Shown here piece after piece: positions 18,301-49,005 of a stretch of 64,000 nucleotides of DNA (positions within the stretch are counted from its first letter, which is position 1; each line of letters begins with the position of its first letter). The notes under the pieces were generated by a model. That model was not told the DNA's origin and did no database searches. It was given only the letters and a program-made list of their open reading frames with translations. Location of the stretch: the NCBI GenBank assembly GCA_043228905.1, contig JBHGNT010000005.1:16554001-16618000 (forward strand), in the 5' to 3' direction. Origin of the DNA: Azolla caroliniana. Its lineage: Eukaryota; Plantae; Polypodiophyta. Made by a program: the position numbers and the translations under genes.

Positions 18301-20819
18301 TATTCCGGATGCTGAAGCCATATTCTGTTTGTGAACTTGAGATTTCTGACCTGGTCTTTTATTTCAGCTTTGTCTGTTGTCTGTTGCCGCCAAACAACAA
18401 AGATTCGCTCTAATACCAGTTGTGGGGTAACAAGTGCGATTTGCAGAAACGCGTATGGATCTGTTGTCGGTTCTGATTAGCAAACAACGCAGACAGAAAA
18501 TAGAATAGGTGTGGACTTACACAGTGCAAGCTCTAATGGAAAGCTTTATTTCTTCCTTCTCACACTCTCTTTGAGATATAATACACAGACATTTCGTCTC
18601 TCTCTCACTCATCACACTATACAATGTTAGGTATTCGCCTATATACTAAGCCCTAACTTATTGACAAGTTCACACTCGGATGGATACAACTTGGAAGGAG
18701 TCGGTCTTTTATGCCAACACCTTGACTATGTCAACTACACCGATGCAGCCCAACCAAGCACTTATGAAGAAGCTATGGCCGCAATGGACGCCGACACATG
18801 GTTACAAGACGTGAAATCTGAAATGGACTCGATTCACAAGAATCATACATGGGAGCTGGTTGAACTACCAATTGGAAGGAAGCTACTACCCTGCAAATGG
18901 GTTTTCCGATACAAATATGTATCCAACTTAGAAAACCCCAAGTACAAAGCTCGGCTCGTCGCGAAGGGATTCAAACAAGAATACGGGGTTGACTACGACG
19001 AGATATTCTCACTAGTAGTCAAGATGACCATCCTCTGACTCTTACTAGGATTTGTGGCAACAGAAGACCTAGAGCTAGAGCAGCTAGATGTAAAGATGAC
19101 ATTTCTACATGGAGATCTAGAAGAAGACATATATTTGTGTCAACCGGCAGGCTTCTCAGCGACGAGGGACGACAGTCACCTCGTATGTCAACTAACGAAA
19201 AGCCTATATGGCTTGAAACAAGCGCCGAGGATGTGGTACCAGAAGTTTGATTCCTACATCAGGCAACTTGGATACCACAGAACTGACTCCGACCCATGTA
19301 TGTATGTTCGGCAACTGGCCGACGAGTCAGGGATCTATCTGATCCTATATGTCGACGACATGTTGATTACAGGAAGCAATCAAGTAGAGATTGGAAAATT
19401 GAAGCGGAGCCTTCACGACAAGTTCGTGATGAAGGAACTCGGACAAGCCCGACACATACTGGGCATGAGGATCGAGCGAAATCGGATGACCAAGACTCTC
19501 CGACTCTCCTAGTCTGACTATATCCGAAAGGTGCTGAAGCACTTCAATATGGAGAATGTGAAGCCAGCATCAACACCGTTTCTGACGTCGATCCGACTAT
19601 CGGACAGAGACTCTCCTTCAACAGACAAGGAGTGAGAGCTTAATGGAAAGATGCCCTACGCATCAGCCGTAGGAAGTATCATGTACGCAATGGTGGTGGC
19701 CCGACCTGACCCAACCTATGCCGTAGGGGTGGTCAGTCGATACATGTCAAACCCAGGAAGGAAGCATTGGGAGGCCATCAAGCACATCTTCAAGTACTTG
19801 AGAGGGACCGAAGATACACAATTGACTTTCGGTTTGACAACCTCAACCGAAGTTGAAGGCTACACCGATTCCGACTATGCTGGAAATACAAATAATTGGA
19901 AATTGACATCATTGTCCATCTTCACATATGGTGGTGGTGCAATATCATGGAGGTCGAAACTTCAAGAGTGCACGGCTCTGTCTACCACAGAAGCCGAGTA
20001 CATAGCGGCATCAGAAGCAGCAAAGGAAGCGATCTGGTTGCATCGACTGTCTTCTGACTTCTCGGATACAAGAAGAAATGATCGGCTATCGCCAACCATC
20101 CATTGCGATTCACAGAGCACAATACACCTCATCAACAATCCCGTCTACCACGCAAAGATGAAGCACATTGAGGTGCGGTATCATCACCTCCAGGAGCTTG
20201 TAACCGAGAAGATGCTAGAAGTCTGAAAAATCGACACCGAGGTGAACATCGCTAATTGCCTGACGAAGCCACCCCTAGATCTACGCTTCGGAGCACTCAG
20301 GACGAAGATGGGACTGCGACAAGCGACCGAGCAAAAGAAAGCCAAACGAGGGACAATATGTAAGACCTAATCAGAACAACTATATCTACACTTACTATAC
20401 CTCTGCCGACTCGGCCACATGCCGACTGACTTGTAATGTAAATTTAGGATAATCTTGTAATCTAGATTTACAGGGGAGAATAACCCCAAACATTTGTATA
20501 CGCAAGAAAGAGTAGTCCTTTTACGGCGCAGTTTGTTGGCATAAAAGGCCGACTCCTTCCAACTTGTATCCGTCCGAGTGTGAACTCATCCACATAGTTA
20601 GGGCTTAGTATATAAGCAATAACCTAACGTTGTAAAGGCAAATGAAACACATTGTATCAAGTCTCTGAGTGAGTGAGAGAGAGAGAACGTAATAAAGCTT
20701 TCCATTAAGGCTCATTTCTGTGTAAGTCTCTGCCTTCCTCCCTTTCTGTGTTGTTTTCCGAGTCAGCAAACGGGTTCTCATACGCTTCCGCATACGCACA
20801 CACCTACCAACTTTCCACA
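12334..20819 (+). mobile_element. Ty1/copia element D, degenerate, full length
   Basis: LTRs 12334-12618 and 20534-20819 (TGTTGGC...TTCCACA). PBS TGGTATTAGAGC at 12621, TSD TACAC. Gag from 12721, integrase ~13900-14860, RT (YVDD) and RH 18720-20226. Confidence 0.95.
15312..18719 (-). mobile_element. Ty1/copia element E, D-related, internally deleted (no RT), nested antisense in D
   Basis: LTRs 15312-15610 and 18421-18719. PBS at ~18407-18418 and PPT at 15611-15625. Flanks share CCTT. After gag/PR/IN the coding jumps at ~16100 to the RNase H end (IYCDSQS...HAKTKHIEV). Confidence 0.92.
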
Positions 20820-21556: not shown

Positions 21557-22654
21557 CTCCTTTCTTCTTCTCCAACTTCTTCTTCTTATCTTTATTATTC
21601 AAGAAATCTAGCAAATTTCTCTCATAATTATGGAGACTGTCAACAAGCAAGAATATATGCGTGTATTGTCTGAGCTCGATATGCTAACAACTATGTTCAT
21701 GGCATTAGAGCAAGAAAGTCAAAGTCTACTCGGGGACCTACAACAAGTGTTGAGAAAGTACAACAATATGAAGAGTTATCTCAACGGGTGCATCAATTGG
21801 AGAGTACTCTACTACAATGACAAGCGATGGAAGTTCAAAACCCATCGAGTGAACCAAAGATTAGTCTTCCGGCCAAGTTTGACGGTACAAGGTCTTAGTT
21901 TCGTGGTTTTTTAAATTAGGTATGACTTGTGAATAAATTACATCCTAGTTGTTACCCAATTGATGTTGCTCATGTGGGAATGGTTGGTACCTTGTTAACC
22001 GGTACTACATTACCATGGTTTGCACCATTCTTGGAGAAGCACTAACCATTATTAGAAGATTTTGAAGGAATTCAAAGCTAGCTTTGGAGACACTACAAGT
22101 ATGAGGACAACAATATAAACAAAATTCGAAGATTACATCAAGGAGATTGTCCAACTTCCGCTTACGCTGCATATTTTTGCCTCCCAGCATGTGATATTCC
22201 GTGGGATGAGGCGGTGTTACCAATTAGGAACACGGTCTGCAATCAGTCCTTCAACCTAGACCTGCAAGTGATTGTGAAACGACGAATGGTGGCGTCTATG
22301 TGTAATGCATAGGGTAATGTTCCTCGTAACCTATCAACGTATAAGGGAGACGGCTACAACCGACTCCTTATCAATGGTCACACTCACGTTCTTACACACT
22401 CAGGTATTCCAGACACACAGTAGATTAGCCGTAGCTATACACAGACTTTCAGAGAAGATAGAATTCTATTATGATACGCTTCTTTACATTCCAAAATACA
22501 CGCTCCCTCTATCAGAGGTTTTCCGCCCTTTATATACGCAGGGTCTATTTAGCCGTTCACGCTTCCTGCGTGAACCGTTACATGCGTTATGATCTTATAT
22601 TATTTCTTATTCCTACTCTCTTGTCCGTCGGTTACTATTCTGGCGGACAACACC

Positions 22655-22671
22655 TGGCACGCCTGTGGGAC
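22655..22671 (+). promoter_or_regulatory. Second, inverted PBS-like motif of element G at the PPT position (TGGCACGCCTGTGGGAC)
   Basis: Lies 2 nt from the 3' LTR and is an inverted near-copy of the 37014-37031 PBS. No purine tract on the coding strand. Confidence 0.75.
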
Positions 22672-23014
22672 AGTGCCCTGGCACGTCAGACCCATCCCGT
22701 TAATCTTCTTCCAAAATGGCCCGGATGTTTGGCTCTACTATGGTGTCCGCGTTTGGAGACGACGTAGGGCCCGTAGGTGCATCGTGGTGTGGCTCCCCTG
22801 TTTGGTCGGAATGGTTTCTCCCGGTGTCGCAGTCGTTGTGTGTGGGCGGTCTGGGTACAGTGGGCTCTTCTTGAGCTAGTCGGTTGGGTTCTGCCGTCGT
22901 CATGCTTGTGGTCGGCCACGGCTCTGTCTCAATCGTTACTTCCTCCGTGGTGTCGGCCTTCTTTGTACGTTCCGGGGACTAGGGCTGTGATTCCACCTGG
23001 CCCGCACCGTTCTA

Positions 23015-23114
23015 NNNNNNNNNNNNNNNNNNNNNNNNNNNNNNNNNNNNNNNNNNNNNNNNNNNNNNNNNNNNNNNNNNNNNNNNNNNNNNNNNNNNNN
23101 NNNNNNNNNNNNNN
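23015..23114. other. Assembly gap (100 N) with duplicated contig overlap
   Basis: ~22565-23013 is repeated, apparently identically, at ~23116-23564. Confidence 0.95.
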
Positions 23115-23529
23115 ACCTGCGTGAACCGTTACATGCGTTATGATCTTATATTATTTCTTATTCCTACTCTCTTGTCCGTCGGTTACTATTCTGGCGGACA
23201 ACACCTGGCACGCCTGTGGGACAGTGCCCTGGCACGTCAGACCCATCCCGTTAATCTTCTTCCAAAATGGCCCGGATGTTTGGCTCTACTATGGTGTCCG
23301 CGTTTGGAGACGACGTAGGGCCCGTAGGTGCATCGTGGTGTGGCTCCCCTGTTTGGTCGGAATGGTTTCTCCCGGTGTCGCAGTCGTTGTGTGTGGGCGG
23401 TCTGGGTACAGTGGGCTCTTCTTGAGCTAGTCGGTTGGGTTCTGCCGTCGTCATGCTTGTGGTCGGCCACGGCTCTGTCTCAATCGTTACTTCCTCCGTG
23501 GTGTCGGCCTTCTTTGTACGTTCCGGGGA

Positions 23530-24747
23530 CTAGGGCTGTGATTCCACCTGGCCCGCACCGTTCTCCGTGTGGTCCGACGATAACGTGGGCTCCTGCGGAT
23601 GGAGCTCCTCTTGGGTAGCGATTTTGTTGTCTAGTACTGTGGGGGACTCCGCTCGCCGGTCCACGCTGTTCACCGTCGTTGTAATTTTTGGTGATCTGGC
23701 CTGAGGTTCCTCTTCTTCGGTCGTGCCCGGACTTGGCCTCGCGCTGGATTCCTCATTTGTTCGCATGTTGCCGGCTTGTGTGATCTGGTGAAATAGCTCC
23801 GCCTGGCTTTCACCAAAATCATCTAAGAGTTGCGCGAGTTCTTCGGAATGTTGGTCCGCTAGCGCACGATAGTCTTGCGCTAGGTCCTCGCGTACGGCCG
23901 CAATGCTCTCCTCATTTAGTTTATAGAAACCTCGGCCGACTTTTCGCCGGTTCTCCCAGTCCGCACGATATGCGTGCAATTCTGCTGCTTGGGTTGCCCA
24001 CACCATCCATCCTTTGTCCAACGCCGTTTTCAATTGCGCTTTGAACCTCTCCCGATTTGTTTGGAGAAGGATACGCACGTTGTTTGTGATGGCCTGGCAA
24101 TGGTTGTGTGCGTCCTCCATCGACTTCTGGAGGTTTGCAATTTCTTGCTGCCTAACCGCCGCCGCTTCTTCGTACGTGGTCTTTAGGCCCGCCCACAGCT
24201 GGGATTCCTTTGCATGTTGTTCTTCTAATTTCCCCATTTCATTGTTTAGGTGGATTTCGAGCTGATGCCTTCTTTCCTGTTCGACCACCAACTGCTCGTC
24301 GAACCATACCTTCTTTTTCTCTAATAAGGCCCGGAGTCCCGCGATTGCCGCCTCCGATTTCTTCGCTTCCTCCCGTAATTGGGCGTTTTCGTCTTTTGTC
24401 CGGATGTGCTGAGCTACCTCCGTAGCGAGTTTCTCTTCAAGGGTTTTTATTGCCCTCCGGCCGTTAGCCTGTATCTCCTTTTCTCTGTCTGAGGATTGGC
24501 GCAGTTCAGCTCGAAGGCGGTTAATTTCTGATTCCGCTAGTTGCACGACCCTTTTTGCTTTTGAGGCGATGGCAGTCTGAGCCTCAATTTCTTCCTTCAA
24601 AGCGTCGATGGCGTGGTTTGGTGGCGGAGTTGCATGTTGCGCCGTACTCGCGTTAGCTTCCAACTCCGCGATGCGTTTGTTGGCTTTTTGCAGCTCGGCT
24701 TGGGTCATTTTCACCTTCTTCCAGACATTCTTATTTTTAATGGCCAT
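23530..24747 (-). CDS. C-terminal coiled-coil part of the extra (3') ORF of element G
   Basis: 405-aa open frame rich in E/K/A/Q heptads, between integrase and the 3' LTR, on the gag-pol strand. Confidence 0.65.
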   Translation of the reverse strand: MAIKNKNVWKKVKMTQAELQKANKRIAELEANASTAQHATPPPNHAIDALKEEIEAQTAIASKAKRVVQLAESEINRLRAELRQSSDREKEIQANGRRAIKTLEEKLATEVAQHIRTKDENAQLREEAKKSEAAIAGLRALLEKKKVWFDEQLVVEQERRHQLEIHLNNEMGKLEEQHAKESQLWAGLKTTYEEAAAVRQQEIANLQKSMEDAHNHCQAITNNVRILLQTNRERFKAQLKTALDKGWMVWATQAAELHAYRADWENRRKVGRGFYKLNEESIAAVREDLAQDYRALADQHSEELAQLLDDFGESQAELFHQITQAGNMRTNEESSARPSPGTTEEEEPQARSPKITTTVNSVDRRAESPTVLDNKIATQEELHPQEPTLSSDHTENGAGQVESQP

Positions 24748-25469
24748 CTCCTTGGCGCCCGTGCTGACCTTTGCCAGTTCTCTATGGACTTTGACTAGGG
24801 CCGTGTTTAATGGGGTAGCTCCATCCCCACTCGGCGTACCCCGACGTTCCTTTGTCTACCGACCCTGGCTAGCCGGTCCTCATCGTCGCTCTCTGTCGTT
24901 TGTGTTAGGGCATGCTCGATCATCTGGCACTCCGCGTGCTCCTCGGCCATTCATTGGGAGGCTTTTATCGGTTGTGTTGCCAGGAATTCCATGAGCTCAA
25001 AAGAGGTTCCAAACTGTAAGAGGGTGCTGAACTCATGGGTCGTATCCTGGATATCTGGATATGCCAAAACCTCGCTTCCTGCTGTCGTGAAGATTTTCGG
25101 CAATAGTGTGAAAATCCCATAAAATGTACGAAATCGAGTATGAATCACGTAATACAATAATTGTGAAGATAACATTTTTAATATCTAAGTACAAAATGAT
25201 GGAGGTTTCGAATGCACTTTATTCCACGAGAAATGGACAACTAAATGTCAAGATATGAGGGTATAAAGTTTGTGAAAAGAAAAGAGAAAATTGTGAGATA
25301 TCCCACATAGGCACGACAAATACGGCTCTCATCATATATAAGGTGGAGCAAAAGATATTATCTTTGTGTCTATGTGTGGAGCATAGAGAGTTCAAGGTAA
25401 CTTGAACTAAGAGTGGAGGTGGCAAGCTACTTGTAAAAGGTTTTGGCCAACCAAAACCGGACCGGCGAT

Positions 25470-25920
25470 GGAGCCGGTGATCCGACGGCATCCAGCGGCG
25501 GCATCCGGCGACCGACAACATCCGGCGGCGGCACCGGTATCCGGCGTCGGCATCCGGCGACCGACCACATCCGGCGGCGGCACCGGTATCCAGCGGCGGC
25601 ATCCGGCGGCGGCACCAGTATCCGGTGTCGGCATCCGGCGACCGACCACATCCGGCGGCGGCACCGGTATCCAGCGACCGCAATCCGGCGGCGGCACCGG
25701 TATCCAGCGGCGGCATCCGGCGACCGACGGAATCCGGCGGCGGCACCGGTATGCGGTGACCGCAATCCGGCGGCGGAACCGGTATCCGGCGTCAACATCC
25801 GGCGACCGACGGCATCCGGTGGCGGCACCGGTATCCGACGACGGTATCCGGCGACCGACGGCATCCTGCGGCGGCACCGGTATCCAGCGACGGAATCCGG
25901 CGAACCGACGTCCGGCGACT
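25470..25920. repeat. GC-rich modular tandem array in U3 of the X LTR (CCGGCGGCGGCACCGGTATCC / GGCGACCGAC)
   Basis: Shuffled 10-21 bp modules. A partial copy lies at 31281-31415. Confidence 0.93.
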
Positions 25921-25965
25921 AAATAAAATAAATATATAAATATATATACATATTTACATATACAA

Positions 25966-26034
25966 GGAGGGCAAGTATGGATTCGAACCTTGCACCTCCA
26001 AGTTAGGAGTCAATTGGCTTACCATTAAGCCATG
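25966..26034 (-). promoter_or_regulatory. tRNA-like Pol III module (A box + B box) in the X LTR; copy at ~31461-31530
   Basis: Minus strand TGGCTTAATGG (A box)...CTCC-TAACTT-GGAG stem...GGTTCGAATCC (B box), then an AT-rich tail containing TTTT. Confidence 0.8.
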
Positions 26035-27702
26035 CTGTTTAGTTGAAATTATATTTCTATCATTGTACTTTTACATGTAAATTCTCATACATGAGAGCTA
26101 AAATGAGTGACATGGTTAGCATGCACCACATGTAATACTTAAGCGCCAAATGGCAAACATGCAATTTATGCATGTCTTGTACCCTCACATGCATCATATG
26201 CATGAGAGCATCTATAAAAGAGGGAAGGGGGAGGAGAAAAAACACGGTTTTTTTTGTATGAAAATTAAGAGGAAGAAATTCGTTATCAAATTGATCGTAT
26301 AATCTCAACTTCTCTCTTTCCCAATCTATCTTAAGTACTTTCTCACCAAAGCTTGTATCGACTCTAAATCCTTCTGGTCCAGAACCCCGGCGGTTCCGCC
26401 TCACAATCCGCGCGTAGTGACAGATCTTCACGACATAATTAAGTGGCTCCGTTTGTGGATCTACGGGTGAATTTCGGAAGAGGAGGAATGAAGAGATCTA
26501 TGGAGGATGCCGATGCGACTCATGTGGATGCGATGCACTATGCTGCGTCGGCCGGAATAAGAGTCGGGAAAGACAAGACTGAAGCTACTAGAGCGGGAGC
26601 AAAGTTTTGGACCTCCATTCTCGAATATGAGAAGAAGGGAAAGATCACATCGAACGAGGTAGAGCTTGCGGACCGAAGCGTGCAAAGCATAACCGGGTGG
26701 TCGGATCCAGTGGACGACAACACCATACTTGCTGAGGTGATGTGCGACAACCACGAGGTGTTCGTCGAAGAAAAGAGAAAGAGAATAGAAGAGCAAGGGC
26801 CATCAAAAAGACATGAAACAAGGAACGCGAAAAAGAAGGACGATGCGGAGACGAGTCGACCTTTACAAACGGAGGAACGAGAATCAAGCCGAAAAGGGGA
26901 GCCAAGCATACGAGTTGAAGAAACGGTTCGGCCCGTGAAGGTTGGTGTCGAAGACCCCGCTCGGAGGACAAGGACTATACCTACCTATAAGCTAAGGTCG
27001 GACATAGAGCAGACGACGGACCTAAAGAAGATTCTTGAAGAACGAGTTCTTGATAGTCACGTAACTTTGTCCTTGAGGGAATTGCTTGGCATTACGAAGA
27101 AGGAGTTCCATGACACGATCGTGGACCTTGTAAAGAGAAAAGACAACAATCGGACGAGGAAGAAGAGAAGCCGCAAAAAGCAAAAACGAATGCCATAACG
27201 ATGGCAAGAGACGAAATCGATGAAGATATGGTGGACAGCCACTACACTCGACCTCATTGGGCACGAGCGACAACGGAGACGCCGGTGAAGATCGGGGAGA
27301 AGAAAGAGACCGTGGTAGCCTTGATCGACCACGGCTCGGAGATCAACCTCATGTCAACCGACTTCTACAAAAAGGGAAGATGGCCAATCAATACAAACCA
27401 CGGATGGAAGATTCGCGCGGCAACAAAGTCTACGGAGGACTTGTACGGAGCTTGTCCCAATGTCAAAGTCACGATTGGGGATGTGGAGATGGATCAACAC
27501 TTCTTCGTACAAGAATCGGCGTCGCATCCTGTCATCCTAGGGCAACCTTATATCACATCATCTCAGATGGAGACCAAGATGTCGTGATGTGGCATGTCTA
27601 GTGCGAGAAAAAATCAAAAATTGAGGATCCACACACATTTCACGAATACTTGTAAAAATGAAAATAAATAAACCTAGGTCACAATGGCATTGAGTGCATG
27701 TA

Positions 27703-27772
27703 GAGGGTTGTAAGTAGGATTTGAACCTTGCACCTCTAAGATAAGAGGCAATTACCTTACCACTAAAGCTAC
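27703..27772 (-). promoter_or_regulatory. tRNA-like Pol III module in the Y LTR; copy at ~30702-30771
   Basis: Minus strand TAGCTTTAGTGG...CCTCT-TATCTT-AGAGG...GGTTCAAATCC. Confidence 0.75.
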
Positions 27773-28281
27773 TACTAAGTGCTTTAGATGTTCTATATTT
27801 CTTTCTCATATTCAGTATTCTGTAGGAAACAAACGAACAAAACCGTGTACACAAACCCACGGTTTTAAGCCCATAGTTTCCTGCATGTCACAAAGCAAAA
27901 CTGTGTGCACAAAAACCATGGCTCCAAGCCCATGGTTTTGTGCATGGACAAACCTATAAAACCCCTAGTACGGCTTGTGTATGGGGGGGGCTCAATATGA
28001 TATGACCATCATCATCACCATCAATAATATAAGCTTCTATTTCTTCTTCTTCGCATCTATCTTGTAATTATTTATCTACTTCTGAAAGTGTACAATCTTC
28101 AATCTTCTCAAGTGTAATAGGTCTTCCTCCAATCTTACATTCACATCGTCCTCTTCTCAATACCTTGACGGACATCCTCCTTGGTCCAAGACCCCAATGG
28201 TCCCGCTCAAGCGAAGCACGCTCGCACGCGCATCTTCGCGATTTTTTTTGGTGAACCCGACATGAAGAGCGGTAGGGGAGG

Positions 28282-29085
28282 ATGAAGTTGGACGAGGAAT
28301 ATCTAATGAAGGCAATGTCAAAGATGATGATGGAGTTTTCAAGAGAAGGGAAAACACGACATGCGGCCCAACAAGCCGTCAAAAGCATGATCAAGCGAGT
28401 CGGGTTTTTTGATGGAGGCAAAGTCCAAAAATTTCTAAAGGCCTACAATGCCGAAATGGATTCAAGAGGAGTGGAGGAAGCAATGAGGCTGGAGTACTTT
28501 TGTCGAGTGGTGGCCGAACCGATCTTCGAAGAGATTAAAGAGATTCAAAAAACTCACGATTCGTGGGTGTCCTTCAAAGAAGCTTTACGAGAGTCATATG
28601 GTTACGAAGAGCAAAAGGGACGAGGTCTGTATGAGTTTCACGAATGGGTGTCATCGAGAAAGACCCACCAGAGTGCTATGCATGCATTCGTTGAGTTTGA
28701 GTATCGCTTCGCTCAACTCTCGGACTGGGATCGAAGATTGGTGGGGGTGAATAAAGTTCTGATGTTTGTAAAGTCAATCGATCGGAATGAAAGGAAGACC
28801 ATTGGAATCCAACTCGAGGATGACAATGGTGAAAATGGCCTCACTGAGGATTGGGCCAAAGTGGAAAGGGTATGCCGACAACACGATAAGAGGGAGATGA
28901 GACTCTCATCGACAACAACACGACCCACAAGGGATGTTCAAAGGAGAATGGGATGTGGCAATAAAAACCCACTGAAGGAAGAAAGCTCAAAGAGGGAAGC
29001 TTCGAAAGAACTCAACATAGAAGCCTTGATGAGAGAGGCAATAATGAACTTAAAGGCACAAGTCGAGGTTGAAGAGAAGTTGTAA
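28282..29085 (+). CDS. Gag (capsid)-like protein of element Y
   Basis: 267-aa ORF just after the PBS. FDGGKVQKFLKAYNAEM is homologous to FDGRNVTKFLDAYKREM of element Z gag. Confidence 0.75.
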   Translation: MKLDEEYLMKAMSKMMMEFSREGKTRHAAQQAVKSMIKRVGFFDGGKVQKFLKAYNAEMDSRGVEEAMRLEYFCRVVAEPIFEEIKEIQKTHDSWVSFKEALRESYGYEEQKGRGLYEFHEWVSSRKTHQSAMHAFVEFEYRFAQLSDWDRRLVGVNKVLMFVKSIDRNERKTIGIQLEDDNGENGLTEDWAKVERVCRQHDKREMRLSSTTTRPTRDVQRRMGCGNKNPLKEESSKREASKELNIEALMREAIMNLKAQVEVEEKL

Positions 29086-31930
29086 ACAAAACCGAGGAAA
29101 ATGGTGATCGACGAAGAGGAGACCTCCCAACAAATGCAGACTAATGGTGCGGCCAATACGAAGGCCCAGGTTTGGTATGACAGTACCATGGGGGAAGGTG
29201 TGAAACAAGCCACCTTCTCAACTTATGGAGGAACGACGGTCGAGAGAAGGGCCGAAGACTCAAGAGCGGGAAATGCTGCTTTAAGAGTGGACGAGCATTT
29301 CAGAACACATGCTGTGTCCGAAATATCGAGTAATGAAGGTGCAAGCATGAGGGAAGCTTGCGTGATCAAGGGATGTAAAGAGTGCGAGGTCGACGTGATT
29401 GAGGCGGTAGCCACGAGAAACGACATCAAGTCGCAGATGGCTAAGGAAGAGTTCACGGCGGATGACCGTGTCGAGACTTTCCCAACACTTGATCTAGAGA
29501 CTTGGGCAGTTGCGTCCGAGAGCCAACATGAGACCCAAGAGACGGAAAGTGTGGGGAAGAAAATATTGAAGACAATGCGAATAACAACATTGAGCGAAAG
29601 ATTGCTACGGATGAGAAGACGGTGACCGATGGTGTCGAGGTTCTCCCCACATTTCTTCCTGAGACTTCGGCAGTTGTGCCCGAGTGTCAACATGAGACCG
29701 GAGAGATGGAAGGTGATGGCAAGAAATCGAAGGACCAAAGTGGCAATGAGGACGATGACCACAGACGAAGGGATCCCTCCACACCGGTTCCGAAGACTTC
29801 GGCAGTTGTGCCCGAGAGCGAACATAAGACCGAAGAGATGGAAGGTGGCGGCGAGGAGATGAGGGTCGACGCCAGCGCATACAGAGGAATGGTGGCCAAC
29901 AAGGACGCCAAAAACAAAGCTACAATAGAGTTCGATGAAGAGCCAGATAGCGGCAAGAAAGGAAGAACCAGAATACAATCCGGATGGAAGATGACGCGGT
30001 TGGTATTCCGACCCGAACGGAAGCCGACCCGAACGAGAGTTGATCAAACGGGCCCGACCCAACCGAAAACCGGATGGAAACTGACCCGGACGAAAGTCGA
30101 TCGTCTGAGTCTGATTCGGCCGAATGTGAATCCGGAGGAAGGCCGACCAAGCCAGAAGCTGATTGGTCGAGACAGACAAAAGTTGAACCGGCCTAGGCGG
30201 AGGTCGAAGCAGACAAGTCGTGACACCCGGTTGAGGATAGTGAGCATAAGGAAAGGCAAGCATGAGACGAGAAATGATGATAAAGGAAAGTTAGGTGACC
30301 AAGGAGATGGTCGAGATGAAGGTGGCACATGCATGAGGCATGAAGCGTTATGCTCGGGAGGAGCAAAGGGAGCCATGACAACTAGACATGGCAATAAAAA
30401 AGGTGAGCGAATGATATGGTGGATCGGATGGCAACGACAGTTCGAAGTAGACGGCAAAAAGACGGTGCGGACGAGGTGCAAGAAAGGAGGAAATCAAACA
30501 CCAACCGCCTTTGACCCTTCCACATCACTCTTTTCTTCTTGGCACATACCGGAGGATGTGCGGTTTGGTGGGGGTGGATGTCGTGATGTGGCATGTCTAG
30601 TGCGAGAAAAAATCAAAAATTGAGGATCCACACACATTTCACGAATACTTGTAAAAATGAAAATAAATAAACCTAGGTCACAATGGCATTGAGTGCATGT
30701 AGAGGGTTGCAAGTAGGATTTGAACCTTGCACCTCTAAGATAAGAGGCAATTACCTTACCACTAAAGCTACTACTAAGTGCTTTAGATGTTCTATATTTC
30801 TTTCTCATATTCAGTATTCCGTAGGAAACAAACGAACAAAACCGTGTACACAAACCCACGGTTTTAAGCCCATAGTTTCCTGCATGTCACAAAGCAAAAC
30901 TGTGTGCACAAAAACCATGGCTCCAAGCCCATGGTTTTGTGCATGGACAAACCTATAAAACCCCTAGTACGGCTTGTGTATGGGGGGGGCTCAATATGAT
31001 ATGACCATCATCATCACCATCAATAATATAAGCTTCTATTTCTTCTTCTTCGCATCTATCTTGTAATTATTTATCTACTTCTGAAAGTGTACAATCTTCA
31101 ATCTTCTCAAGTGTAATAGGTCTTCCTCCAATCTTACATTCACATCGTCCTCTTCTCAATACCTTGATGGACATCCTCCTTGGTCCAAGACCCCGATGGT
31201 CCCGCTCAAGCGAAGCACGCTCGCACGCGCATCTTCGCGATTTTTTTATTTTTTTATTTTTTTTATTTTTTTTTAAGAAGACCGACGGCATCTGGCGGCG
31301 GCACCGGTATCCGGCGGCGGCACCGGTATCCAGCAGCGGCATCCGGCGACCGACGGCATCCGGCGGCGGCACTGGTATGCGGCGACGGCATCCGGTGAAC
31401 CGGCGTCCGGCGACTAAATAAAATAAATATATAAATATATATACATATTTACATATACAAGGAGGGCAAGTATGGATTCGAACCTTGCACCTCCAAGTTA
31501 GGAGTCAATTGGCTTACCATTAAGCCATGCTGTTTAGTTGAAATTATATTTCTATCATTGTACTTTTACATGTAAATTCTCATACATGAGAGCTAAAATG
31601 AGTGACATGGTTAGCATGCACCACATGTAATACTTAAGCGCCAAATGGCAAACATGCAATTTATGCATGTCTTGTACCCTCACATGCATCATATGCATGA
31701 GAGCATCTATAAAAGAGGGAAGGGGGAGGAGAAAAAACACGGTTTTTTTTGTATGAAAATTAAGAGGAAGAAATTCGTTATCAAATTGATCGTGTAATCT
31801 CAACTTCTCTCTTTCCCAATCTATCTTAAGTACTTTCTCGCCAAAGCTTGTATCGACTCTAAATCCTTCTGGTCCAGAACCCCGGCGGTTCCGCCTCACG
31901 ATCCGCGTGTAGTGACGGATCTTCACGACA

Positions 31931-32872
31931 CCGCCGTCAATACGGCTTTCCCTCGTTGGGACTGGGTCGTATTGATCGGTCGTGGCTCCCGGATGATTTC
32001 GAAGGTGGTATTGGGCTTCGTAGCTGCGGAGCCATCGCCTTCGGTCGGTGTCTCTGCCGCTGTGGGGACTTCTTTGACCAATCCCCGCCCATCTTTACTG
32101 TCCAATCTACATCGTTTTGGTTTGGGGCTATCCTGCCGTGTTTCGGTGTCTGGCTCTGGGCTACTTCCACGAAACGTGCCGGTTGTTCCTCCTACGTTGT
32201 CCATGTGTCTAGCTGGGTGGTAGGTGTTGTCCGCGTGTCTAGTTGGGCGGGTTGGGGTTCCTCTTCCCACTCTCGGGCCGCTAACTCCGCTAACTTGCGC
32301 TTCGCGGATCGGGGCGGGGGCGTGGGTCGGCTGGGTTGTGGTGCCGACAGGCCTCAGGGTGGGAATAGTACCGTAAGGTACTGTTGTATGATCGGCCTGA
32401 GCTTTTTGCCTGCCTGATACGCATGCAAGCCTTCCCTTAACCCCGGCCCTGTGATGACCCCCCAATCGACCGCACGCCCTTCAAAGGTATCGATAATGAT
32501 GCCCGCCTTCTGCTTGGGCATCCCATATGCGTTGACATGTACGTAGCCGACCTCTAATAGGAACTTGGCAACTTCACGGAAGAAGGGATCCGAGATCTAC
32601 TTCGTTCTATAGGCCTTGGCGGAGGAGGAATATGGGCCGAAATATCGCTGCAACGGCTCTGCAGGAGGGATTTCGAAATGCCTTTCGCCTAGCGATGACA
32701 GGTCCAACTTTTTCCGGATGGAAGAGTTGGTGACCGTGTCGATGTTAAGCTTCCTGGCAATGTCCATGGCATCCGGGTGTGGGGGTGCCTCTGCGACCCG
32801 GATGTACCCATCTAGGCGTTTCTCCACGAGCCATCGGCGTAAGGCAGTAGAGATGAAGATCAGCATCGCCAT
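31931..32872 (-). pseudogene. N-terminal part of the extra ORF of element G (degenerate)
   Basis: Frames 32597-32872 and 31923-32465. VLTA continues as GSEVLAY at 25078 once element X is removed. Confidence 0.6.
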
Positions 32873-35231
32873 AGTAGGTTCGTGGGAAGGAGACTGGTGG
32901 TTGCAGTGGGCTGGAGCTCTGTGATAGGATGGAGGAGAAGGTGAGGGGGAGGAGCGATGGAAGCGTTGATAGTAGAAGGTGGGTTTCTGTTTTGTGCAGA
33001 AAATCTTCTATTTCCTTCTTTTTGTGGCTTAGGGTTCATTGGGCAGTGAGCCATCGTGGTGCCGCGTGTTCTTGAACTAGGAATCTGTGCATGCATTTAG
33101 TCCTTTTAATAGTCGTTATCTTCTCTTTTTTTCTCCTTTTTTTTTTCGTAACGGTTATATACAGCCTATTTTTACATTATGGTACAAGTGGGGCAGTCCA
33201 TTTACGCCACAGGTTCTCCGGCTCTGTCCTGTTTGGCGGTGAATGGGTTAGGTGGCGTAGATCCCAGGTAAGGTTTAAGGCGAAACCCATTCACCTTTTG
33301 CCATACTACTTCCCCGACCAGCATACCTAGTGGGAACGTGCCTTGTTCCGCTCCAATTATCCAGTATGGGCCGGTCTAGCGGAATCGTAACTTCCCTGGC
33401 ATATGGCCCATGGGGGTTTGGAAAACCAGCATCGCTCGACCAACGGCGAACTCCTTTTCCCTTACGTTCTGATGTCAATCCACAAACGCTTTACGTCGTC
33501 GTTGTTCCTGCTCCAACACAGCCATGTTGTGTACGCGTTTTTCCCTGAGTTTGAGTAGCTCGTGGAGTCGTACCTCCTCCGACTTGGCTTCCGATAGTCG
33601 GTCCCGTACCTGAATCCGCAAATTGGGTACCTGAAATTCGATCGGCATCACAGCCTCCAGCCCAAACGCTAGTCGAAACGATGTTGACTGTATGCTTGTT
33701 TTGTAGCTGGTTCTGTACACCCATAACGCACTCCATAATTTGGTAGCCCAGTCCATTCTATTTTCATTGATGATTTTCTTCAAGATGTTCTACAACGTCT
33801 TGTTGGTGGATTTAGCTAACCCATTCACCTGTGGATAATATGGCGTACTCTTCTTATGGACTACGGCGTAATGATGTGTTAGTTCCCGAACCACCATATT
33901 GAGAAAGTGGCTCCCTTGGTCACTGATGAGCTCAATCGGACAGTCGAACTGGCACTAGATGTGCTCGTAAAGGAATCTGGTTGTGACGACCGCCGTATTT
34001 TCTCGTAGTGCCTTTGCTTCTACCCACTTGGTGCAATAATCCGTAGCTACCAATATGAGTGTGTAGTGCGATCATCGTGTTTCTCTGGTCCGGCCTTAAT
34101 TCCTTTGCGATGGAGAGGAAACGGGGTTCCGACTCTATACCCACATTTACTTCTTCCAGGGCGGAGGCGGTGACTCGTCGTGAAATTTCCATTTCCCTTT
34201 CGAATGCCGCTCGTGCTCTGCTGAGTTCCAATATGGACTCTGGGTTTGATTCGTAAGCCTCGTCGTGGAGAATAGTGGTCGTGGAATATTCTGCAGCAGT
34301 TGCGATGACGTCGATTTCGAACAGCGGAATGATCTGAGGGTGCTCATCTAGGTATGCCTCTAATTCTGCATCCTCCACCCCAGCCAGCATATTTATATCT
34401 TCTGCGTATAATGGTGTTATACCCTTGGGTTGTGGCGTACTTCCTTCCGTAGGTACGCGAACCTTAGTGTGTCCGTGTCGGAAACTGGTACACTTGTGTT
34501 GCCAACTCTGCTTGATATTTGCTACCCAGAAGCACTGGGTACGCCCCTGGGGCGTCCAAGGCGAGGACGACCGCCGAGATGTTGAAGCAATGTCTGCCCA
34601 CGATAATGCCTATCTTGCGAATTAACCCCAATGGTTGTACTGAGCGGGTATTTACCATTCGGAGCCAGAATGGGCAAGCCTCCCATTCTGAAATGCCTAA
34701 TTGCTCGCAAGTTTTCACGCTAATTACATTGACGCCTGAGCCGCCATCGATTACGCATCCAGGAATTTCCTGTCCGTGTAATATTAATGTAATAGCCGGG
34801 CTGTGGTGATCCACTACAGGCGGGTCGTCGCTAACGTCTGTAAGGTTTGTAGCGACACTCACCCCGGGTATGCCCGTCACCCGTTCTTCCATGGTCTGAC
34901 GGAAGCGTGGGACTAGCTGCAGTAGTTTCTCCATGGTTAACGTTATCTCGCAGCCCGCTAATGCCTGCCAAATGGTGTCTGGGACCGGTCCTTCGTCCTC
35001 TGCTCGCTCCCTCGCATTCGCGGACTGCTTCCGCATGCGCTCTGTATTGGTCGTGTTTGCTTTTTCCACCCATGCCTGGGCTTGTCGTCGTATCTCATCT
35101 TGCGCAGCCCAATCAGCCGTTTTTGTTTACTGGCGTGTCGTGACTTGCTGCACTTCCGCCGTAATCATATTGATAACGGGCCCCTTGCCCTTGCATGCTG
35201 GGCATTGCGTGGCATAATGTCCGGGCTGCTG

Positions 35232-36317
35232 AAAAATAAAAGAATGGATGCTTGATTCGCCCTTCTCGGCTCCTAGTGGTGTGTGTCGATCCCCTGGTGC
35301 AACTTGCTCCTCACGCTCTAGCCTTGTTTGTCGGAACGCACGCGGTGGTTGTTGTTGGTCCCGTCGTGGTTCTTGGTGTCCCTTTGATTCATCTCCCTCT
35401 TATATGCATCAAGGAACTTCGTAACGTTCCTTCCATCGAATTGGCCCTCGAGCTCTACGACACGATCGACAGCCTTCTCCACGCTTGCGTCGTTGTCCCG
35501 AGATCTCATCATTTGCTCGACGATTAGCATCATCCTTTCGAGCTCTCCTGCTTGGTTGCTTGAGGACGCCATCTCCAAGTATTAATCTCGACTTGATCCT
35601 TCCTACCGCCTCTTTCACCTCGGGTTCACCACTTTATTATGTCGTGAAGATCCGTCACTACGCGCGGATCGTGAGGCGGAACCGCCGGGGTTCTGGACCA
35701 GAAGGATTTAGAGTCGATACAAGCTTTGGCGAGAAAGTACTTAAGATAGATTGGGAAAGAGAGAAGATGAGATTACACGATTGATTTGATAACGAATTTC
35801 TTCTTCTTAATTTTCATAAAAAAAAACCATGTTTTTCTCCTCCCCCTTCCTTCTTTTATAAATGCTCTCATGCATATGATGCATGTGAGGGTACAAGACA
35901 TGCATAAATTGCATGTTTGCCATTTGGCGCTTAAGTATTACATGTGGTGCATGCTAACCATGTCACTCATTTTAGCACTCATGGATGAGAATTTACATGT
36001 AAAAGTACAATGATAGAAATATAATTTCAACTAAATACTATGGCTTAATGGTAAGTCATTTGACTCCTAACTTGGCTTATTTGTCGTGCCTATGTGGGAT
36101 ATCTCACAATTTTCTCTTTTCTTTTCACAAACTTTATACCCTCATATCTTGACATTTAGTTGTCCATTTCTCGTGTAATAAAGTGCATTCGAAACCTCAA
36201 TCATTTTGTACTTAGATATTAAAAATGTTATCTTCACAATTATTGTATTAGATGATTCATACTCGATTTTGTACGTTTTATGGGATTTTCACACTATTGC
36301 CGAAAATCTTCACGACA
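35232..36317 (-). mobile_element. Truncated X-family element Z (5' LTR 35640-36317, PBS, gag start)
   Basis: The LTR is the reverse complement of the X LTR with an internal deletion of roughly 0.7 kb at ~36075. PBS TGGTGAACCCGA lies 8 nt inside. Gag N-terminus 35318-35578. No 3' LTR. Confidence 0.88.
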
Positions 36318-37013
36318 GCGTTGCCCGTATGGGTCGGCGTAATGCTGCCAGAAATGTCTCTCAAGCCTCGTCCTCCACGGGGCTGCGTTCTAGTTTCCGC
36401 CATAAATTTTGGAAATGTAAGCTGAAGTCTGCGATCGTCTCGGTCGGCAGTTGCTTAATCGTGTAGAACTGTCCAAGGATTTCGCATTGTGGAACCCTTC
36501 GATGGAAGAACCACAAGAAAGCGGACTGCAGCTGATCGAAGGTTGTGATGGCTGGTAAATCCATCTGTGAATGCCAAAACGTCGCGCGCCCATCCAATGT
36601 TAACCCGAACTCCGTCATTTTTTACTGGTGCGCTACTGCCTCCGAAAGGCTCTGCGCCATGTGGTTCGCAATCCAAACATTAAGGAACATGCGAATATGG
36701 GTTGCGGCGTCGGTTTCACCGTTAAAGCGGGGATAGGCAATGGCCATGTTGGGGGCTACGATGGGTCTGGAAAGACCACAGGGTGGCTGAGGTGAGCGTG
36801 CTCCCTGCGTATCGTCGGGGTATTTGGAGAGCGAAGAATCACCTTTGTAATCACGGCAGGTAGTACTGAGGTCGCTGAGGCGAGGCTTTTGTCGTGCGCG
36901 TTCCTTTGCCTGGCGTGTGACGGACCTTGTGATTGGTCGGTCTTGTCATGTTGGTTCTCTAGGGCGTCTGCGGCTAAACATCCATTCGTCGTTGTTCGTA
37001 TGTGAGAAGTCAC

Positions 37014-37031
37014 GTCCGACCATGCGTGCCA
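37014..37031 (-). promoter_or_regulatory. PBS of element G, tRNA-Arg type (TGGCACGCATGGTCGGAC)
   Basis: Lies 4 nt inside the 5' LTR. Resembles the complement of the plant tRNA-Arg(UCU) 3' end as I recall it (TGGCACGCCCGGTGGGAC). Confidence 0.8.
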
Positions 37032-39952
37032 AATGTGTTACCGATTAGGAACACAATCTGCGGTCAGTCCTTCGACCTAGACCTCCAAGTGATTGTGAAA
37101 CGACGAATGGTGGTGTCTATGCATAATGCATAGGGGAATGTTCCCCGTAACCTATCAGCGTATAAGGGAGACGGCTACAACCGACTCCTTATCAGTGGTC
37201 ACACTCACGTTCTTACACGCTCAGGTATTCCAGACACACAGTAGATTAGCCATAGCTATACACAAACTTTCAGAGAAGATAGAATTCTATTATGATACGC
37301 TTCTTTACATTCCAAAATACACGCTCCCTCTATCAGAGGTTTTCTGCCCTTTATAGACACAGGGTCTATTTAGCCGTTCACGCTTCCTGCGTGAACCGTT
37401 ACATGCATTATGATCTTATATTATTTCTTATTCCTTCGCTCTTGTCCGTCGGTTACTATTCCAACGGACAACAGGCGGCAGTGGGCACTAATGGACCAAC
37501 TTCGTCAAGGTTTGCGCAATGACGTGAAGGGTTTACTTCTTACCTTCCCTGATAATCTGAAATTTGTTACTAAAATAATAAGTTGGGTTGTGCGCTGTGA
37601 CAATCGCTTATTTGAGCAAAATTGTGAACGCCAACAAATGTTATGTTTCATATTAGAAAAAACATATGCCTCGGTGGTCGCAACTCCACCACAAGTGTCA
37701 AAGCCCAGTTTGATGGAAGGCCCCACGCTAATGGAAATTGAGACAACACGACATCGAGGACCATTATTGGATGCTGAAAAGCAACAACGTCGAGCGAATC
37801 GTCTATGCCTATATTGTGGCGGTCCAGGATATATAGTTGTGAATTGTCCACATAAACCAAGATGACAAGTTAACCAAGTAAGTGCCCATGAAAACCCCAT
37901 TTCAATTTCTGCCTCGCCTTCTCATAGCCTAAGTAGGCCTAGTAGCCCCTGTTATAAAAATACATTTGATATCTTGAGCCAATTCAAAGATGGGTTAAAC
38001 GAGTAAGTCTGGCCAAAATAGGAGCCATTTGGTTAGATAATCCTAGGGGCATATAACATTCATCCCTAGTAGTGGTTCCATTGCATCAGGTCAAGTTAGT
38101 CGAGTTTTCTCCACATAGCTTGAACTTACCACATCTAGGTGCCATCTCTTAGATTCTGGAGCCAACTCCTGTTTCATGGATCATGACTTCGCTATAATGC
38201 ATAGTATCAAGTTGCATAAGCTCCCAAACCTAGTGTCTATTGGAGTCATTGATGGATGCCCCATAGCATCAGGTGATATAGTTGAAGAGTCTAAACCAAT
38301 TCATGCAGTTCTAGGTAATTTGACCAGTGTCATCTCATTCAACATCATTAGTAGTTCAGAGCACTCCCTACTTGGTCTTCCATGGTTTGAGCTACATAAC
38401 CCAACTATTGATTGGAGAAAAAGAACTATTGAAAAGGTCATGGTATATAGTTCGAGTCTCTTAAAACTCCAACAAGGGATTTGGGATTCCACAAGATTTC
38501 AACAATCTCTATACATCAATTACATGAGGAAGGAAGGAAGACATGTTTGTGTTCGCAGTTTTAGCAACTCCCTCATCTAGCTCACAAGAATTGAGGGTCC
38601 AACTACCAAAGAAGTATACAGAATTCTCCAATGTGTTCGATAAGGTGAAGGCCAATAGACTACCAAAGCATTGACCATATGATTGCCCGATTGATTTGCA
38701 ACCAGGAAAAGAGCCTCCATGGGGACCAATTTATAACTTTGCGCCCACAGATTTAGAGGTTCTTCAAGAATATATCGATGAGAACCTGGCAAATGGTTTT
38801 ATACCACATTCAAGATCTCATGTTGGCACACTCGTTTTTTTCATTAAGAAGAAAGATGGTTCGCTTCGTATGGTCGTGGATTATCCAGGATTGAATAAAG
38901 TGACTATTCAAAACTAATATGCTCTACCATTGATCTCAAGCCTTCTTGAACGCCTCAACGGAGCAAAATATTTCACGAAGTTAGATCTTCAAGGTGCCTA
39001 CAACCTTGTTCGAATTCATCCTAGGGATGAATGGAAGACTGCTTTCCGCACTCGATGTGGCCATTTTGAGTATACAATGATGCCATTTGATCTCACAAAT
39101 GCACCAGCAGTTTTTCAACATATGGCAAATGACATTTTTTGTGACTTCCTTGATATCTTCGTCATAATTTACCTGAGTGATATCTTGATCTACTAAAAAA
39201 CTCAAGAGGCTCATGATATACATGTTTGCCAAGCTTCACAACGGTTGTAGAATATGGTCTCCATGCAAAATTGGAAAAGTGTAGTTTTGACCAGTGTCAA
39301 GTAGAATTTTTGTGGTACATAGTCTCTTCAAATGGCATCTCTATGGATCTAGCAAAGGTTCAAATAGTCTTGGATTGGCAAACACCACAGTTTGTGCGAA
39401 AATTACAATGTTTTTTGGGGTTCACAAACTTTTATCGCAAGTTCATCAAAGATTATTCAAAGTTCATATTTCCCCTCACTTAACTGATGCAAAAGAATCG
39501 ACCATTTGTATGGAGTACAAATGCAAACTCTGCATTTGAGGGTTTATAACAATCATTTACATTTGCACTAATTTTGATGCATGTTGATCCAATGAAGCGC
39601 TTTATACTCGAAGCTAATGCATCCGACTTTGCATTAGGAAGCGTACTATCCTAGATTTGTGTGGCCAACTACACCTTGTGGCTTTTCACTCACGAAAATT
39701 TGAAGCAGCAAAAATCAACAATGAGATTCATGACAAAGAGCTTCTTGCCATTATGGATTCTTTTCAACAATGGCATCAATTTTTGGAGGGTTCTTTTGAA
39801 CAAATTATCGTCTACAATGATCACAAAAAACTAACATACTTCCAAAGTGTTGGAGTCTTGAGTTGTCGACAAACTCGTTGCCCGTGCAGTTCTTAACTTG
39901 TTTTGATTTCGTAATTCTATATCGCCCTTGGATGCAACAAGGAAAAGCATAT

Positions 39953-47870: not shown

Positions 47871-49005
47871 CAACTCGTGGAACTCATCATCAAAAAGGGG
47901 GGATAATGTTATGAAGACATACATTTTGGCTTATAAGGATTCGAACTCATAACTTCTTAGTCTATGTGTTAAAACCTTTAACCATTATAATAACATATAT
48001 GATATATAATTATAATAATTATATTATTAGTTATTACAAGATATTTAGAGTATTCTGGAACATTCTAAAATATTCTATGATTATCTTAAATATCATAAAT
48101 GTCTAAAATATTCTAGAACATTCTAGAATACTCCATAGGACCTATAATATAGGTGTCTATTCATTCATCACAATTCATTCAGTTCAACACCAATCTTCAC
48201 CCCTTAGCCTACCCTTGAACTCTCTTATAATATAAACTTCTTCCCATTTCCTTCCTTTTCTCTCTCTCTCTCTCTCTCTCTACCTTCTATCATAATCTTT
48301 CTTCTATTCTCTCTCTCTCCTACTCGCAAGTCACAACAAATGGTATGTCATATAGTCGTCGTAATCGAATCGGCTGAAGACATTCTTTTCTCGAGTGGCG
48401 ACGAAGTTTCTCATTTGTCGTTGCAATGGCTTTCTTCACTCCAGTTGTCCGCATAATAGGCACATCAAAACCACCATATTCACTGTCGAGTGAGTGAGTT
48501 GATTGGTTGCCGTTAGATTGATCATCTTCATATTCCAACAATTTGGCCTTGCCTTTATCCGGTTTCGAACTTGGCCGCAACGTGCTTTGGTCACTCAGAG
48601 GCTCTTGAGGTCCACTTAGCCTGGTTGAGATTAGATTTTCCTCTAGTGTAAGCCTCAATCAATCATCCTCCTCTGAGTCTATACAATTGACATCGGTTAC
48701 AATTGGTTTGGATAGAGTAGAGTCGTCGGTTGTGTACCAAGATGCCGATTCATCGAATATGACATCTCTACTCACTGTAGATGGGTTGAAGCACTTATAC
48801 CCTTTTTGTTCGAGCGAGTAACCTACGAGTATGCACTTCTCCGATTTCGGATCAAGCTTTTGCCACTTTTCATTAGGAATGTGTACGTATGTAATCAAGC
48901 CGAATAGCTTGACGTGAGATAAGTTCGGCTTCTTTCCACAAAACTTCTCGTGAGGGGTTACATCATGTAGTACGGATGTTGTGCACCAATTCATCAGGTA
49001 GACGA

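What the first reader, a model, noticed from the sequence alone, without database searches (positions are those of the whole stretch)
22215..37473. Gypsy element with two inverted tRNA-Arg PBSs and no PPT: possible tRNA priming of both cDNA strands
Seen: G is minus-strand by gag position and LTR TATA, and its PBS TGGCACGCATGGTCGGAC lies 4 nt from the 5' LTR. Where the PPT should be, 2 nt from the 3' LTR, the RNA reads GUCCCACAGGCGUGCCA-GG, a sense mimic of a tRNA 3' end ending in CCA (plus strand TGGCACGCCTGTGGGAC, 22655-22671). No purine tract is present. The LTRs are direct repeats with a clean GGCGG TSD, so this is not a head-to-head chimera. Established: LTR elements normally prime the plus strand from an RNase H-resistant PPT, and the Ty3 bipartite PBS is same-sense, unlike this. 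Inference, three options: the same tRNA anneals to minus-strand cDNA and primes into U3; the mimic pairs with the PBS to circularise or self-prime the RNA; or the element replicates from either strand. I know of no described family with this layout.
Basis: partly seen in the sequence, partly recalled or inferred. Interest (0 to 1): 0.85.

Follow-up and report, generated by a model that had tools for sequence, protein, structure and literature searches.

The report
Retrotransposon with tRNA site replacing PPT
A high-copy clade of plant jumping genes lacks the purine-rich patch that such elements normally use to start their second DNA strand and carries at that exact spot a conserved 41-base likeness of a tRNA's end, so it likely starts both strands from tRNA-type primers, which would be a new way to copy this class of elements.

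Summary
Observation confirmed and extended. The element has 438-bp LTRs, a GGCGG target duplication and a minus-strand gag-pol. It has a tRNA-Arg PBS 4 nt inside the 5' LTR and no PPT. A tRNA 3'-end likeness ends in CCA 2 nt before the 3' LTR. This is a clade trait: CCA sits there in 41 of 45 junctions examined, none has a purine run over 5 nt, and sampled relatives are 41-69% identical to the window in the linked ORF. The likeness is larger than reported. It is a 41-nt cassette matching tRNA positions 49-76, with a covarying hairpin inserted at 58/59 and position 66 always missing. The recurring changes are mostly G>A, which keeps pairing between a tRNA and the minus strand. I therefore favour a second host tRNA-Arg priming the plus strand (0.48) over the element's own RNase H-cut mimic (0.27). 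Priming itself is untested, and host tRNAs were unavailable. The last 5 nt of the 18-nt 5' PBS are specific to this copy. Nine literature searches listed no such element. The scan noted this layout three times before in this genome and once in a fungus.

The parts
22210..22214 (.). target-site duplication GGCGG (left)
22215..22652 (-). 3' LTR, 438 bp; U3 begins at 22652; TATA-like motif 22529-22536
22653..22654 (-). 2-nt spacer between CCA and the LTR's TG; length fixed, sequence variable (TG 19, AG 11, GG 11, other 4 of 45)
22655..22671 (-). cassette 3' half: tRNA positions 59-65 and 67-76 including CCA; position 66 missing; a PBS-like site on the opposite strand
22672..22685 (-). inserted hairpin (13-14 nt) at tRNA position 58/59, with compensatory changes
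22686..22695 (-). cassette 5' half: tRNA T-stem 5' strand and T-loop, positions 49-58
22700..25080 (-). 3' part of the extra sense ORF (coiled-coil-like by sequence, no Pfam family), broken; stops 4 nt before the cassette; holds the N gap and the 449-bp assembly overlap
25083..31930 (.). nested retroelements that split the extra ORF (not part of the element)
32040..32866 (-). 5' part of the extra sense ORF, 68% identical to P0001 residues 1-234
33119..33147 (-). 29-nt purine run just after the pol stop; similar run in L008, L018, L020; candidate central PPT
33211..34056 (-). integrase core and C-terminal part (72% to L018 pol 1548-1833), with stops
34064..35375 (-). zinc knuckle, protease and pre-RT linker; RT, RNase H and the integrase zinc finger (L018 pol 910-1547) are absent
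35640..36317 (.). nested solo-LTR-like insertion in gag (not part of the element)
36316..36750 (-). gag core (46% to L018 pol 100-244), frameshifted
37014..37031 (-). 5' PBS, tRNA-Arg type; about 14 nt shared with other copies, last 5 nt private to this copy
37032..37035 (-). 4-nt spacer between 5' LTR and PBS
37036..37473 (-). 5' LTR, 438 bp
37474..37478 (.). target-site duplication GGCGG (right)

Best explanation
This is a defective copy of a high-copy plant Ty3/gypsy clade that has no polypurine tract and carries a conserved tRNA-Arg 3'-end cassette 2 nt before the 3' LTR, where a second host tRNA-Arg likely anneals to the minus-strand cDNA and primes the plus strand. Shown: the layout, its conservation, the absence of a PPT, the hairpin's covariation. 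Inferred steps: (1) tRNA-Arg primes the minus strand at the ~14-nt 5' PBS as usual; (2) after strand transfer RT copies U3 and the cassette and RNase H removes the RNA; (3) the exposed DNA offers a two-part site that pairs with tRNA 76-59 (C66 bulged) and 57-49, the hairpin looping out at the modified base A58; (4) RT extends the CCA end, giving a 2-nt overhang for integrase to trim; (5) RNase H removes the tRNA at the CCA-DNA junction.
For: Position: CCA exactly 2 nt before TG in 41 of 45 junctions, exact GCGTGCCA in 34 of 45, longest purine run in the last 25 nt at most 5 in 45 of 45. Neither end has a PPT in either orientation, so a second-strand primer of another kind is needed whichever strand is copied. 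Identity: a 25-nt degenerate pattern built from the cassette and PBS matched 23 bacterial loci, 21 called tRNA-Arg by ARAGORN. Against one such tRNA the 29 distinct cassettes average 88% identity over 27 positions (70-96%). External partner: tRNA-matching stems show no compensatory changes while the inserted hairpin does (85.7% paired vs 76.8 shuffled, 4 pairs with two-sided changes). Asymmetry: G>A in 47 cells at 11 G sites (16 of them at position 67, where the host base is unknown) against C>T in 10 cells at 8 C sites. G>A keeps a G.T wobble between tRNA and minus strand. Decay between the two window LTRs runs the other way, 16 C/T vs 5 A/G. A68 appears in two separate clades. The freest positions are 55 and 58, which are modified in tRNAs (recalled). 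Ty1 uses a two-part PBS with a small loop (PMC5371799, passages).
Against: No priming was observed; all of it is sequence inference. Host tRNAs were not available, and some variants need isodecoders with G67 or U68 that I could not show exist. Cells are not independent events; the asymmetry rests on about five recurring changes. Position 66 is missing in 29 of 29 cassettes although its presence would lengthen tRNA pairing. Two family-level G.U pairs (58:60, 48:67) favour folding of the sense RNA. A tRNA:DNA hybrid is itself an RNase H substrate (established knowledge). Single cassettes fold no better than shuffles (z from +1.3 to -2.8).
Confidence: 0.48

Rival explanations
1. The element's own RNA cassette is the plus-strand primer. 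It refolds as a hairpin that escapes RNase H, keeps a 10-nt tail paired to the cDNA, and is cut after CCA, a junction like that of tRNA removal. No second host tRNA is needed.
For: The RNA is already annealed and need not match the tRNA, which explains the fixed loss of position 66 (29 of 29). Hairpin covariation. A 48:67 pair varies C-G, T-A, T.G in some clades. The stem ends 10 nt before the CCA junction, and Ty3 RNase H cuts 10-12 bp downstream of a local distortion (PMC5371799, section 13).
Against: It does not explain why the outer stem keeps tRNA sequence with no compensatory change, nor why positions 53, 67 and 68 vary almost only between G and A. A49 opposite C65 breaks the sense stem in 5 of 24 rows. 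The same 10-nt spacing also fits a bulged tRNA base.
Confidence: 0.27
2. The cassette helps another step (pairing with the 5' PBS to circularise the RNA, or taking up the freed 5' strands of the PBS-bound tRNA to bridge the ends), and the plus strand starts elsewhere, for example at the purine run after pol.
For: PBS-mimic duplexes of -13.5 to -25.8 kcal/mol in 7 pairs. Ty3 bridges its ends through tRNA (PMC5371799, passages). A purine run follows the pol stop in the window, L008, L018 and L020.
Against: Pairing follows trivially from both sites being tRNA-derived. In intact L018 the sites do not match at positions 67-68. A primer 3 kb upstream cannot set the U3 end of a 438-bp LTR. The fixed 2-nt spacing fits a primer end.
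Confidence: 0.13
3. The reverse-transcribed genome is, or can be, the strand antisense to gag-pol, with the cassette's complement as an extended first-strand PBS and the 5' PBS priming the second strand.
For: The antisense site (17 + 10 nt, structured) is a longer tRNA match than the 14-nt 5' PBS. The wobble asymmetry fits antisense RNA as well as minus DNA.
Against: TATA-like motif, gag-pol and extra ORF share one orientation. The window's 5' PBS departs from other copies only up to PBS position 18, as a copy of the first-strand tRNA would (inference). No cassette has regained position 66.
Confidence: 0.07
4. A copy-specific accident (template switch, head-to-head chimera) or an assembly artefact with no function.
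For: An N gap with an exact overlap lies 350 bp from the junction. Earlier notes describe single-copy inversions in other genomes (unchecked).
Against: Same layout in 41 of 45 junctions across several clades and in intact elements. Laid contigs from 3 studies cover the junction bin at high depth with no listed variant at 22642-22677. The target duplication is intact.
Confidence: 0.02

Closest known systems
Canonical LTR retroelement priming (tRNA at PBS, RNase H-resistant PPT), e.g. Ty3 (PMC5371799: passages and section 13)
   Same: Direct LTRs with TG...CA, tRNA PBS after the 5' LTR, gag-PR-RT-RH-INT order, a fixed primer-like site just upstream of U3.
   Different: No purine tract; the site is a tRNA 3'-end cassette. 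Ty3's bipartite PBS lies in the RNA sense and in U3 and coexists with a PPT.
Plant non-chromovirus Ty3/gypsy: Athila, Tat subclades, Phygy, Selgy (Neumann et al. 2019, PMC6317226: passages and Additional file 5)
   Same: No chromodomain, 5-bp TSD, extra ORF after pol, tRNA-Arg PBS as in Ogre, TatIII and some Retand.
   Different: No aRH (unlike all Tat). PBS is Arg, not Asp/Asn (Athila), Trp (Phygy) or Ala (Selgy). RT-RH groups with liverwort, fern and unnamed sequences, apart from angiosperm Athila-like and aRH-bearing rows. The passages read report no inverted PBS.
Ty1 bipartite PBS and HIV-1 primer activation signal (Ty1 from PMC5371799 passage; PAS recalled)
   Same: Extra pairing with the tRNA T arm across a looped-out segment.
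   Different: Those act on the RNA genome for first-strand initiation; here the complementary site is on the opposite strand at the 3' LTR.
Helenus TRIMs (PMC10886601: passages)
   Same: tRNA-derived sequence inside an LTR element.
   Different: Helenus carries it within the LTR with Pol III promoter boxes, keeps PBS and PPT, and the author found no role in priming. Here it is outside the LTR, includes CCA and replaces the PPT in an autonomous clade.

Membership tests
Ty3/gypsy LTR retrotransposon | Direct LTRs with TG...CA and a target duplication | tested here: met
Ty3/gypsy LTR retrotransposon | Domain order gag-PR-RT-RH-INT | tested here: met
   met in intact relative L018; the window copy lacks RT-RH but keeps the order of the rest
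Ty3/gypsy LTR retrotransposon | tRNA PBS after the 5' LTR | tested here: met
   tRNA type by bacterial look-alikes only
Ty3/gypsy LTR retrotransposon | PPT before the 3' LTR (usual, not part of the phylogenetic definition) | tested here: not met
   purine run at most 5 in 45 of 45 junctions
Chromovirus | Chromodomain at the integrase end; RT clade | tested here: not met
   no chromodomain hit in L018 or L008 pol; separate from chromovirus rows
Tat (TatI-III, Ogre, Retand) | Additional aRH domain (92-100% of members) | tested here: not met
   one RNase H region only, no PF13456 hit
Athila | RT-RH clade; PBS tRNA-Asp/Asn/Ala | tested here: not met
   outside the starred angiosperm Athila-like group (rows labelled Athila-like by me from species and lack of aRH, not from REXdb); PBS is Arg
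Phygy / Selgy | 4-bp TSD, Trp or Ala PBS, no extra ORF | tested here: not met
   5-bp TSD, Arg PBS, long extra ORF
Phygy / Selgy | RT clade with REXdb reference sequences | not testable with these tools
   reference FASTA too large to read
Dual tRNA priming (proposed) | tRNA covalently at the 5' end of plus-strand DNA | not testable with these tools
   needs particles or in vitro RT
Dual tRNA priming (proposed) | Host tRNA-Arg complementary to both sites | tested here: inconclusive
   no host genome or tRNA gene; bacterial tRNA-Arg has the same 3' end

The most novel reading that the evidence does not exclude
An autonomous, high-copy LTR retrotransposon clade has dropped the PPT and starts its plus strand from a tRNA-type CCA end (a second host tRNA on DNA, or a captured tRNA 3' half that the element transcribes itself), so both cDNA strands are tRNA-primed.
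Probability: 0.75. Interest if true: 0.88.

Novelty: new variant of a known kind. Interest (0 to 1): 0.78.

Why it matters
First-strand priming is known to vary among LTR elements (whole tRNA, half tRNA, self-priming; PMC6317226), but the reviews read here treat the PPT as the second-strand primer throughout. A successful clade without one would show that PPT priming is replaceable. It offers a natural test of how RT tells a primer from an RNase H substrate. It also predicts that tRNA fragments could act at both ends of the element. Annotation pipelines that require a PPT, or that orient elements by the PBS, would miss or flip such elements. The cassette includes CCA, which eukaryotic tRNA genes lack (PMC6317226, methods passage), so it was probably captured from a mature tRNA by reverse transcription.

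Tried and rejected
No host genome is held, so copies could not be collected genome-wide. No tRNA gene in the window or in 47 of the 79 loci scanned. Rfam found nothing on the L064 cassette at E up to 10. Viral contigs gave nothing for the junction pattern, the pol region or the tRNA pattern. No RNA holder listed. Paper searches for the motif letters gave only unrelated hits. My first register script and first pair count were off by one column and were redone. Folding z-scores of single cassettes were uninformative. Pfam found no family in the window's extra ORF; a weak VP30 hit below cut-off on L018's ORF was ignored; Atlas hits under 0.9 are leads only. Head-to-head chimera rejected by the target duplication and relatives. 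Contigs reading cassette-LTR-PBS were not taken as single elements because they may be assembly collapses. DNA around the next-nearest pol relatives (P0009-P0027) was not obtainable, so the point where the PPT was lost is not located.
Full report
Observation. The two LTRs (22215-22652, 37036-37473) are 438 bp, 94% identical and flanked by GGCGG. Gag, protease and integrase remnants lie on the minus strand, and the stretch matching L018 pol 910-1547 (RT, RNase H, integrase zinc finger) is missing. Nested elements split gag and a long extra ORF after pol. The 5' PBS is 4 nt from its LTR and the inverted site 2 nt from the other, with no purine tract at either end in either orientation. A 100-N gap with an exact 449-bp overlap duplicates the 3' junction but does not create it.

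Not copy-specific. Contigs of four runs (three samples, three studies) laid on 22150-23014 at 80% likeness gave 2204-3794 records per run. The bin 22643-22671 was among the deepest, and no variant between 22642 and 22677 was among the 40 listed; 178 further rows were not shown, and other families sharing the motif may add depth. On the 5' side the same runs show that PBS positions 14-18 of this copy are nearly private and that position 9 is a minority letter. So the shared PBS is about 14 nt, as in the loci. The private stretch ends exactly at PBS position 18, which is what copying a different tRNA up to modified A58 would leave; this is an inference.

Relatives. The extra ORF found 4 longer homologues and 79 metagenome loci. 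In 44 loci a U3 start was located by alignment to five LTR seeds plus the window's (the five were themselves found next to the motif). With the window that gives 45 junctions: CCA 2 nt before TG in 41, exact GCGTGCCA in 34, longest purine run at most 5 in all 45. The four exceptions (L015, L031, L043, L055) look decayed or deleted; none has a PPT. Of the other 35 loci, 23 end before the expected LTR and 12 run on without an LTR match; one of these (L033) has a purine run near a TG but no LTR match, and L058, L067 and L076 show all or part of the cassette. The loci are not independent: there are 33 distinct 42-nt junctions, 29 that could be put in register, and at least three clades in a tree of 41 of the 45 rows; eight rows sampled across it are 41-69% identical to the window. 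How many host species they stand for is unknown. L018 and L020 are intact from PBS to 3' LTR, with one long gag-pol frame and a sense extra ORF.

What the motif is. A degenerate pattern built from the cassette and PBS matched 23 bacterial loci; ARAGORN tRNA-Arg, one tRNA-Asp and one nothing. Against these, the cassette reads as tRNA positions 49-58, a 13-14-nt insertion, 59-65, a one-base gap at 66, and 67-76 with CCA; the L064 type matches at 26 of 27 positions. The insertion forms a hairpin: 85.7% of cells pair against 76.8% in shuffles, 4 of 7 pairs change on both sides, and slid registers reach at most 47%. I derived the structure from these same sequences, and relatedness can inflate such counts. 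Single sequences fold no better than shuffles. The host tRNA itself was not seen; that plant tRNA-Arg(UCU) ends this way is recalled.

Mechanism. The fixed 2-nt spacer with variable letters is what a primer end gives before integrase trims two bases (established knowledge), so a CCA-ended primer is the common core of the two leading models. I began favouring the element's own mimic. After seeing earlier notes that favoured a host tRNA I counted substitutions. tRNA-matching stems keep tRNA sequence without compensation while the inserted hairpin covaries. G>A fills 47 cells at 11 G sites and C>T 10 cells at 8 C sites, whereas decay between the window's LTRs is 16 C/T to 5 A/G. G>A in the RNA sense leaves a G.T wobble between tRNA and minus strand. 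Position 55 takes all four bases and 58 two; these are pseudouridine and 1-methyladenosine in tRNAs (recalled). Against this, the signal rests on about five recurring changes, position 66 is absent in 29 of 29, and two G.U pairs favour sense-RNA folding. The structural break lies 10 nt from the CCA junction, and Ty3 RNase H is redirected 10-12 bp downstream of a distortion (PMC5371799, section 13); this fits both models. Odds: host tRNA on minus DNA 0.48, own mimic 0.27, helper role with priming elsewhere 0.13, antisense genome 0.07, accident 0.02.

Classification. L018 pol has gag, zinc knuckle, protease, RT, RNase H and integrase, with no aRH and no chromodomain. Its best named relatives are Riccia and Marchantia proteins at 43-48%. 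In a 40-row RT-RH tree the cassette-bearing rows form a starred clade with unnamed sequences inside a group holding liverwort and fern rows, apart from angiosperm Athila-like and aRH-bearing rows; one partial row was dropped and deeper forks are weak. By TSD, PBS type, aRH and extra ORF it fits none of the non-chromovirus lineages in Neumann et al. 2019 (PMC6317226: passages and Additional file 5). The host is probably a non-seed land plant (inference).

Novelty. Nine searches listed no element with an inverted PBS in place of the PPT; most hits were seen as listings only. I read passages of PMC6317226, PMC11963269, PMC10886601, PMC12786077 and PMC5371799 (plus its section 13). Additional files 1 and 3 of PMC6317226 were too large to read and could bear on classification, and subscription journals and Repbase are outside the library. 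The scan noted the same layout three times in this genome and once in a fungal copy; these are unchecked notes, not support. Verdict: a real, conserved feature; a new variant of LTR-element replication; mechanism inferred; interest 0.78.

Noticed in passing
window 22565-23564: Exact 449-bp overlap on both sides of a 100-N gap, most likely unmerged contigs; inflates the element length by about 550 bp.
   Followed up: yes
window 33119-33147; L008:3275, L018:6912, L020:5635: A-rich purine run of 21-29 nt just after the pol stop in four elements; possible central PPT or a signal for expressing the extra ORF.
   Followed up: partly
window 37014-37018: Five PBS bases private to this copy end exactly at PBS position 18; possible footprint of a different tRNA-Arg isodecoder copied up to A58.
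   Followed up: partly
window 25083-31930: Nested plus-strand Gypsy with TGTCGTGA termini and CTGC/CCGC flanks, like the NCGN 4-bp target of Phygy; it holds a younger element with 671-bp repeats at 99.4% (27578-31247) and GC-rich tandem repeats at 25437-25902.
   Followed up: partly
window 35640-36317: Solo-LTR-like insertion of the same nested family inside gag, in the opposite orientation to the copies at 25083 and 31930.
   Followed up: no
window 21900-22214 and 37474-38600: The element sits inside the gag of another repeated Ty3-like element; a loose end in run X5 at 22219 reads like the empty site.
   Followed up: no
window 1781-7310 and 49004-54541: Two copies of one copia family in opposite orientation, 97% identical, each with LTRs about 99% alike; the second has a 1367-aa open frame.
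   Followed up: no
window 12334-20819: Nest of copia copies with related 286-300-bp LTRs in both orientations.
   Followed up: no
L001, L002, L006, L010-L012, L016, L017, L021, L024, L027, L037, L039, L053: Contigs read extra ORF, cassette, one LTR, then a PBS: assembly collapse of the LTR, or real tandem arrays or circles.
   Followed up: no
window 32040-32866; P0001 residues 1-175: The extra ORF's N-terminal domain is well conserved (68%) but has no Pfam family; weak Atlas likeness (0.81) to clusters with DUF1985 or plant mobile domain in 13-20% of members.
   Followed up: partly
window 57058-57819: Array of about 153-bp repeats, 64-84% alike.
   Followed up: no
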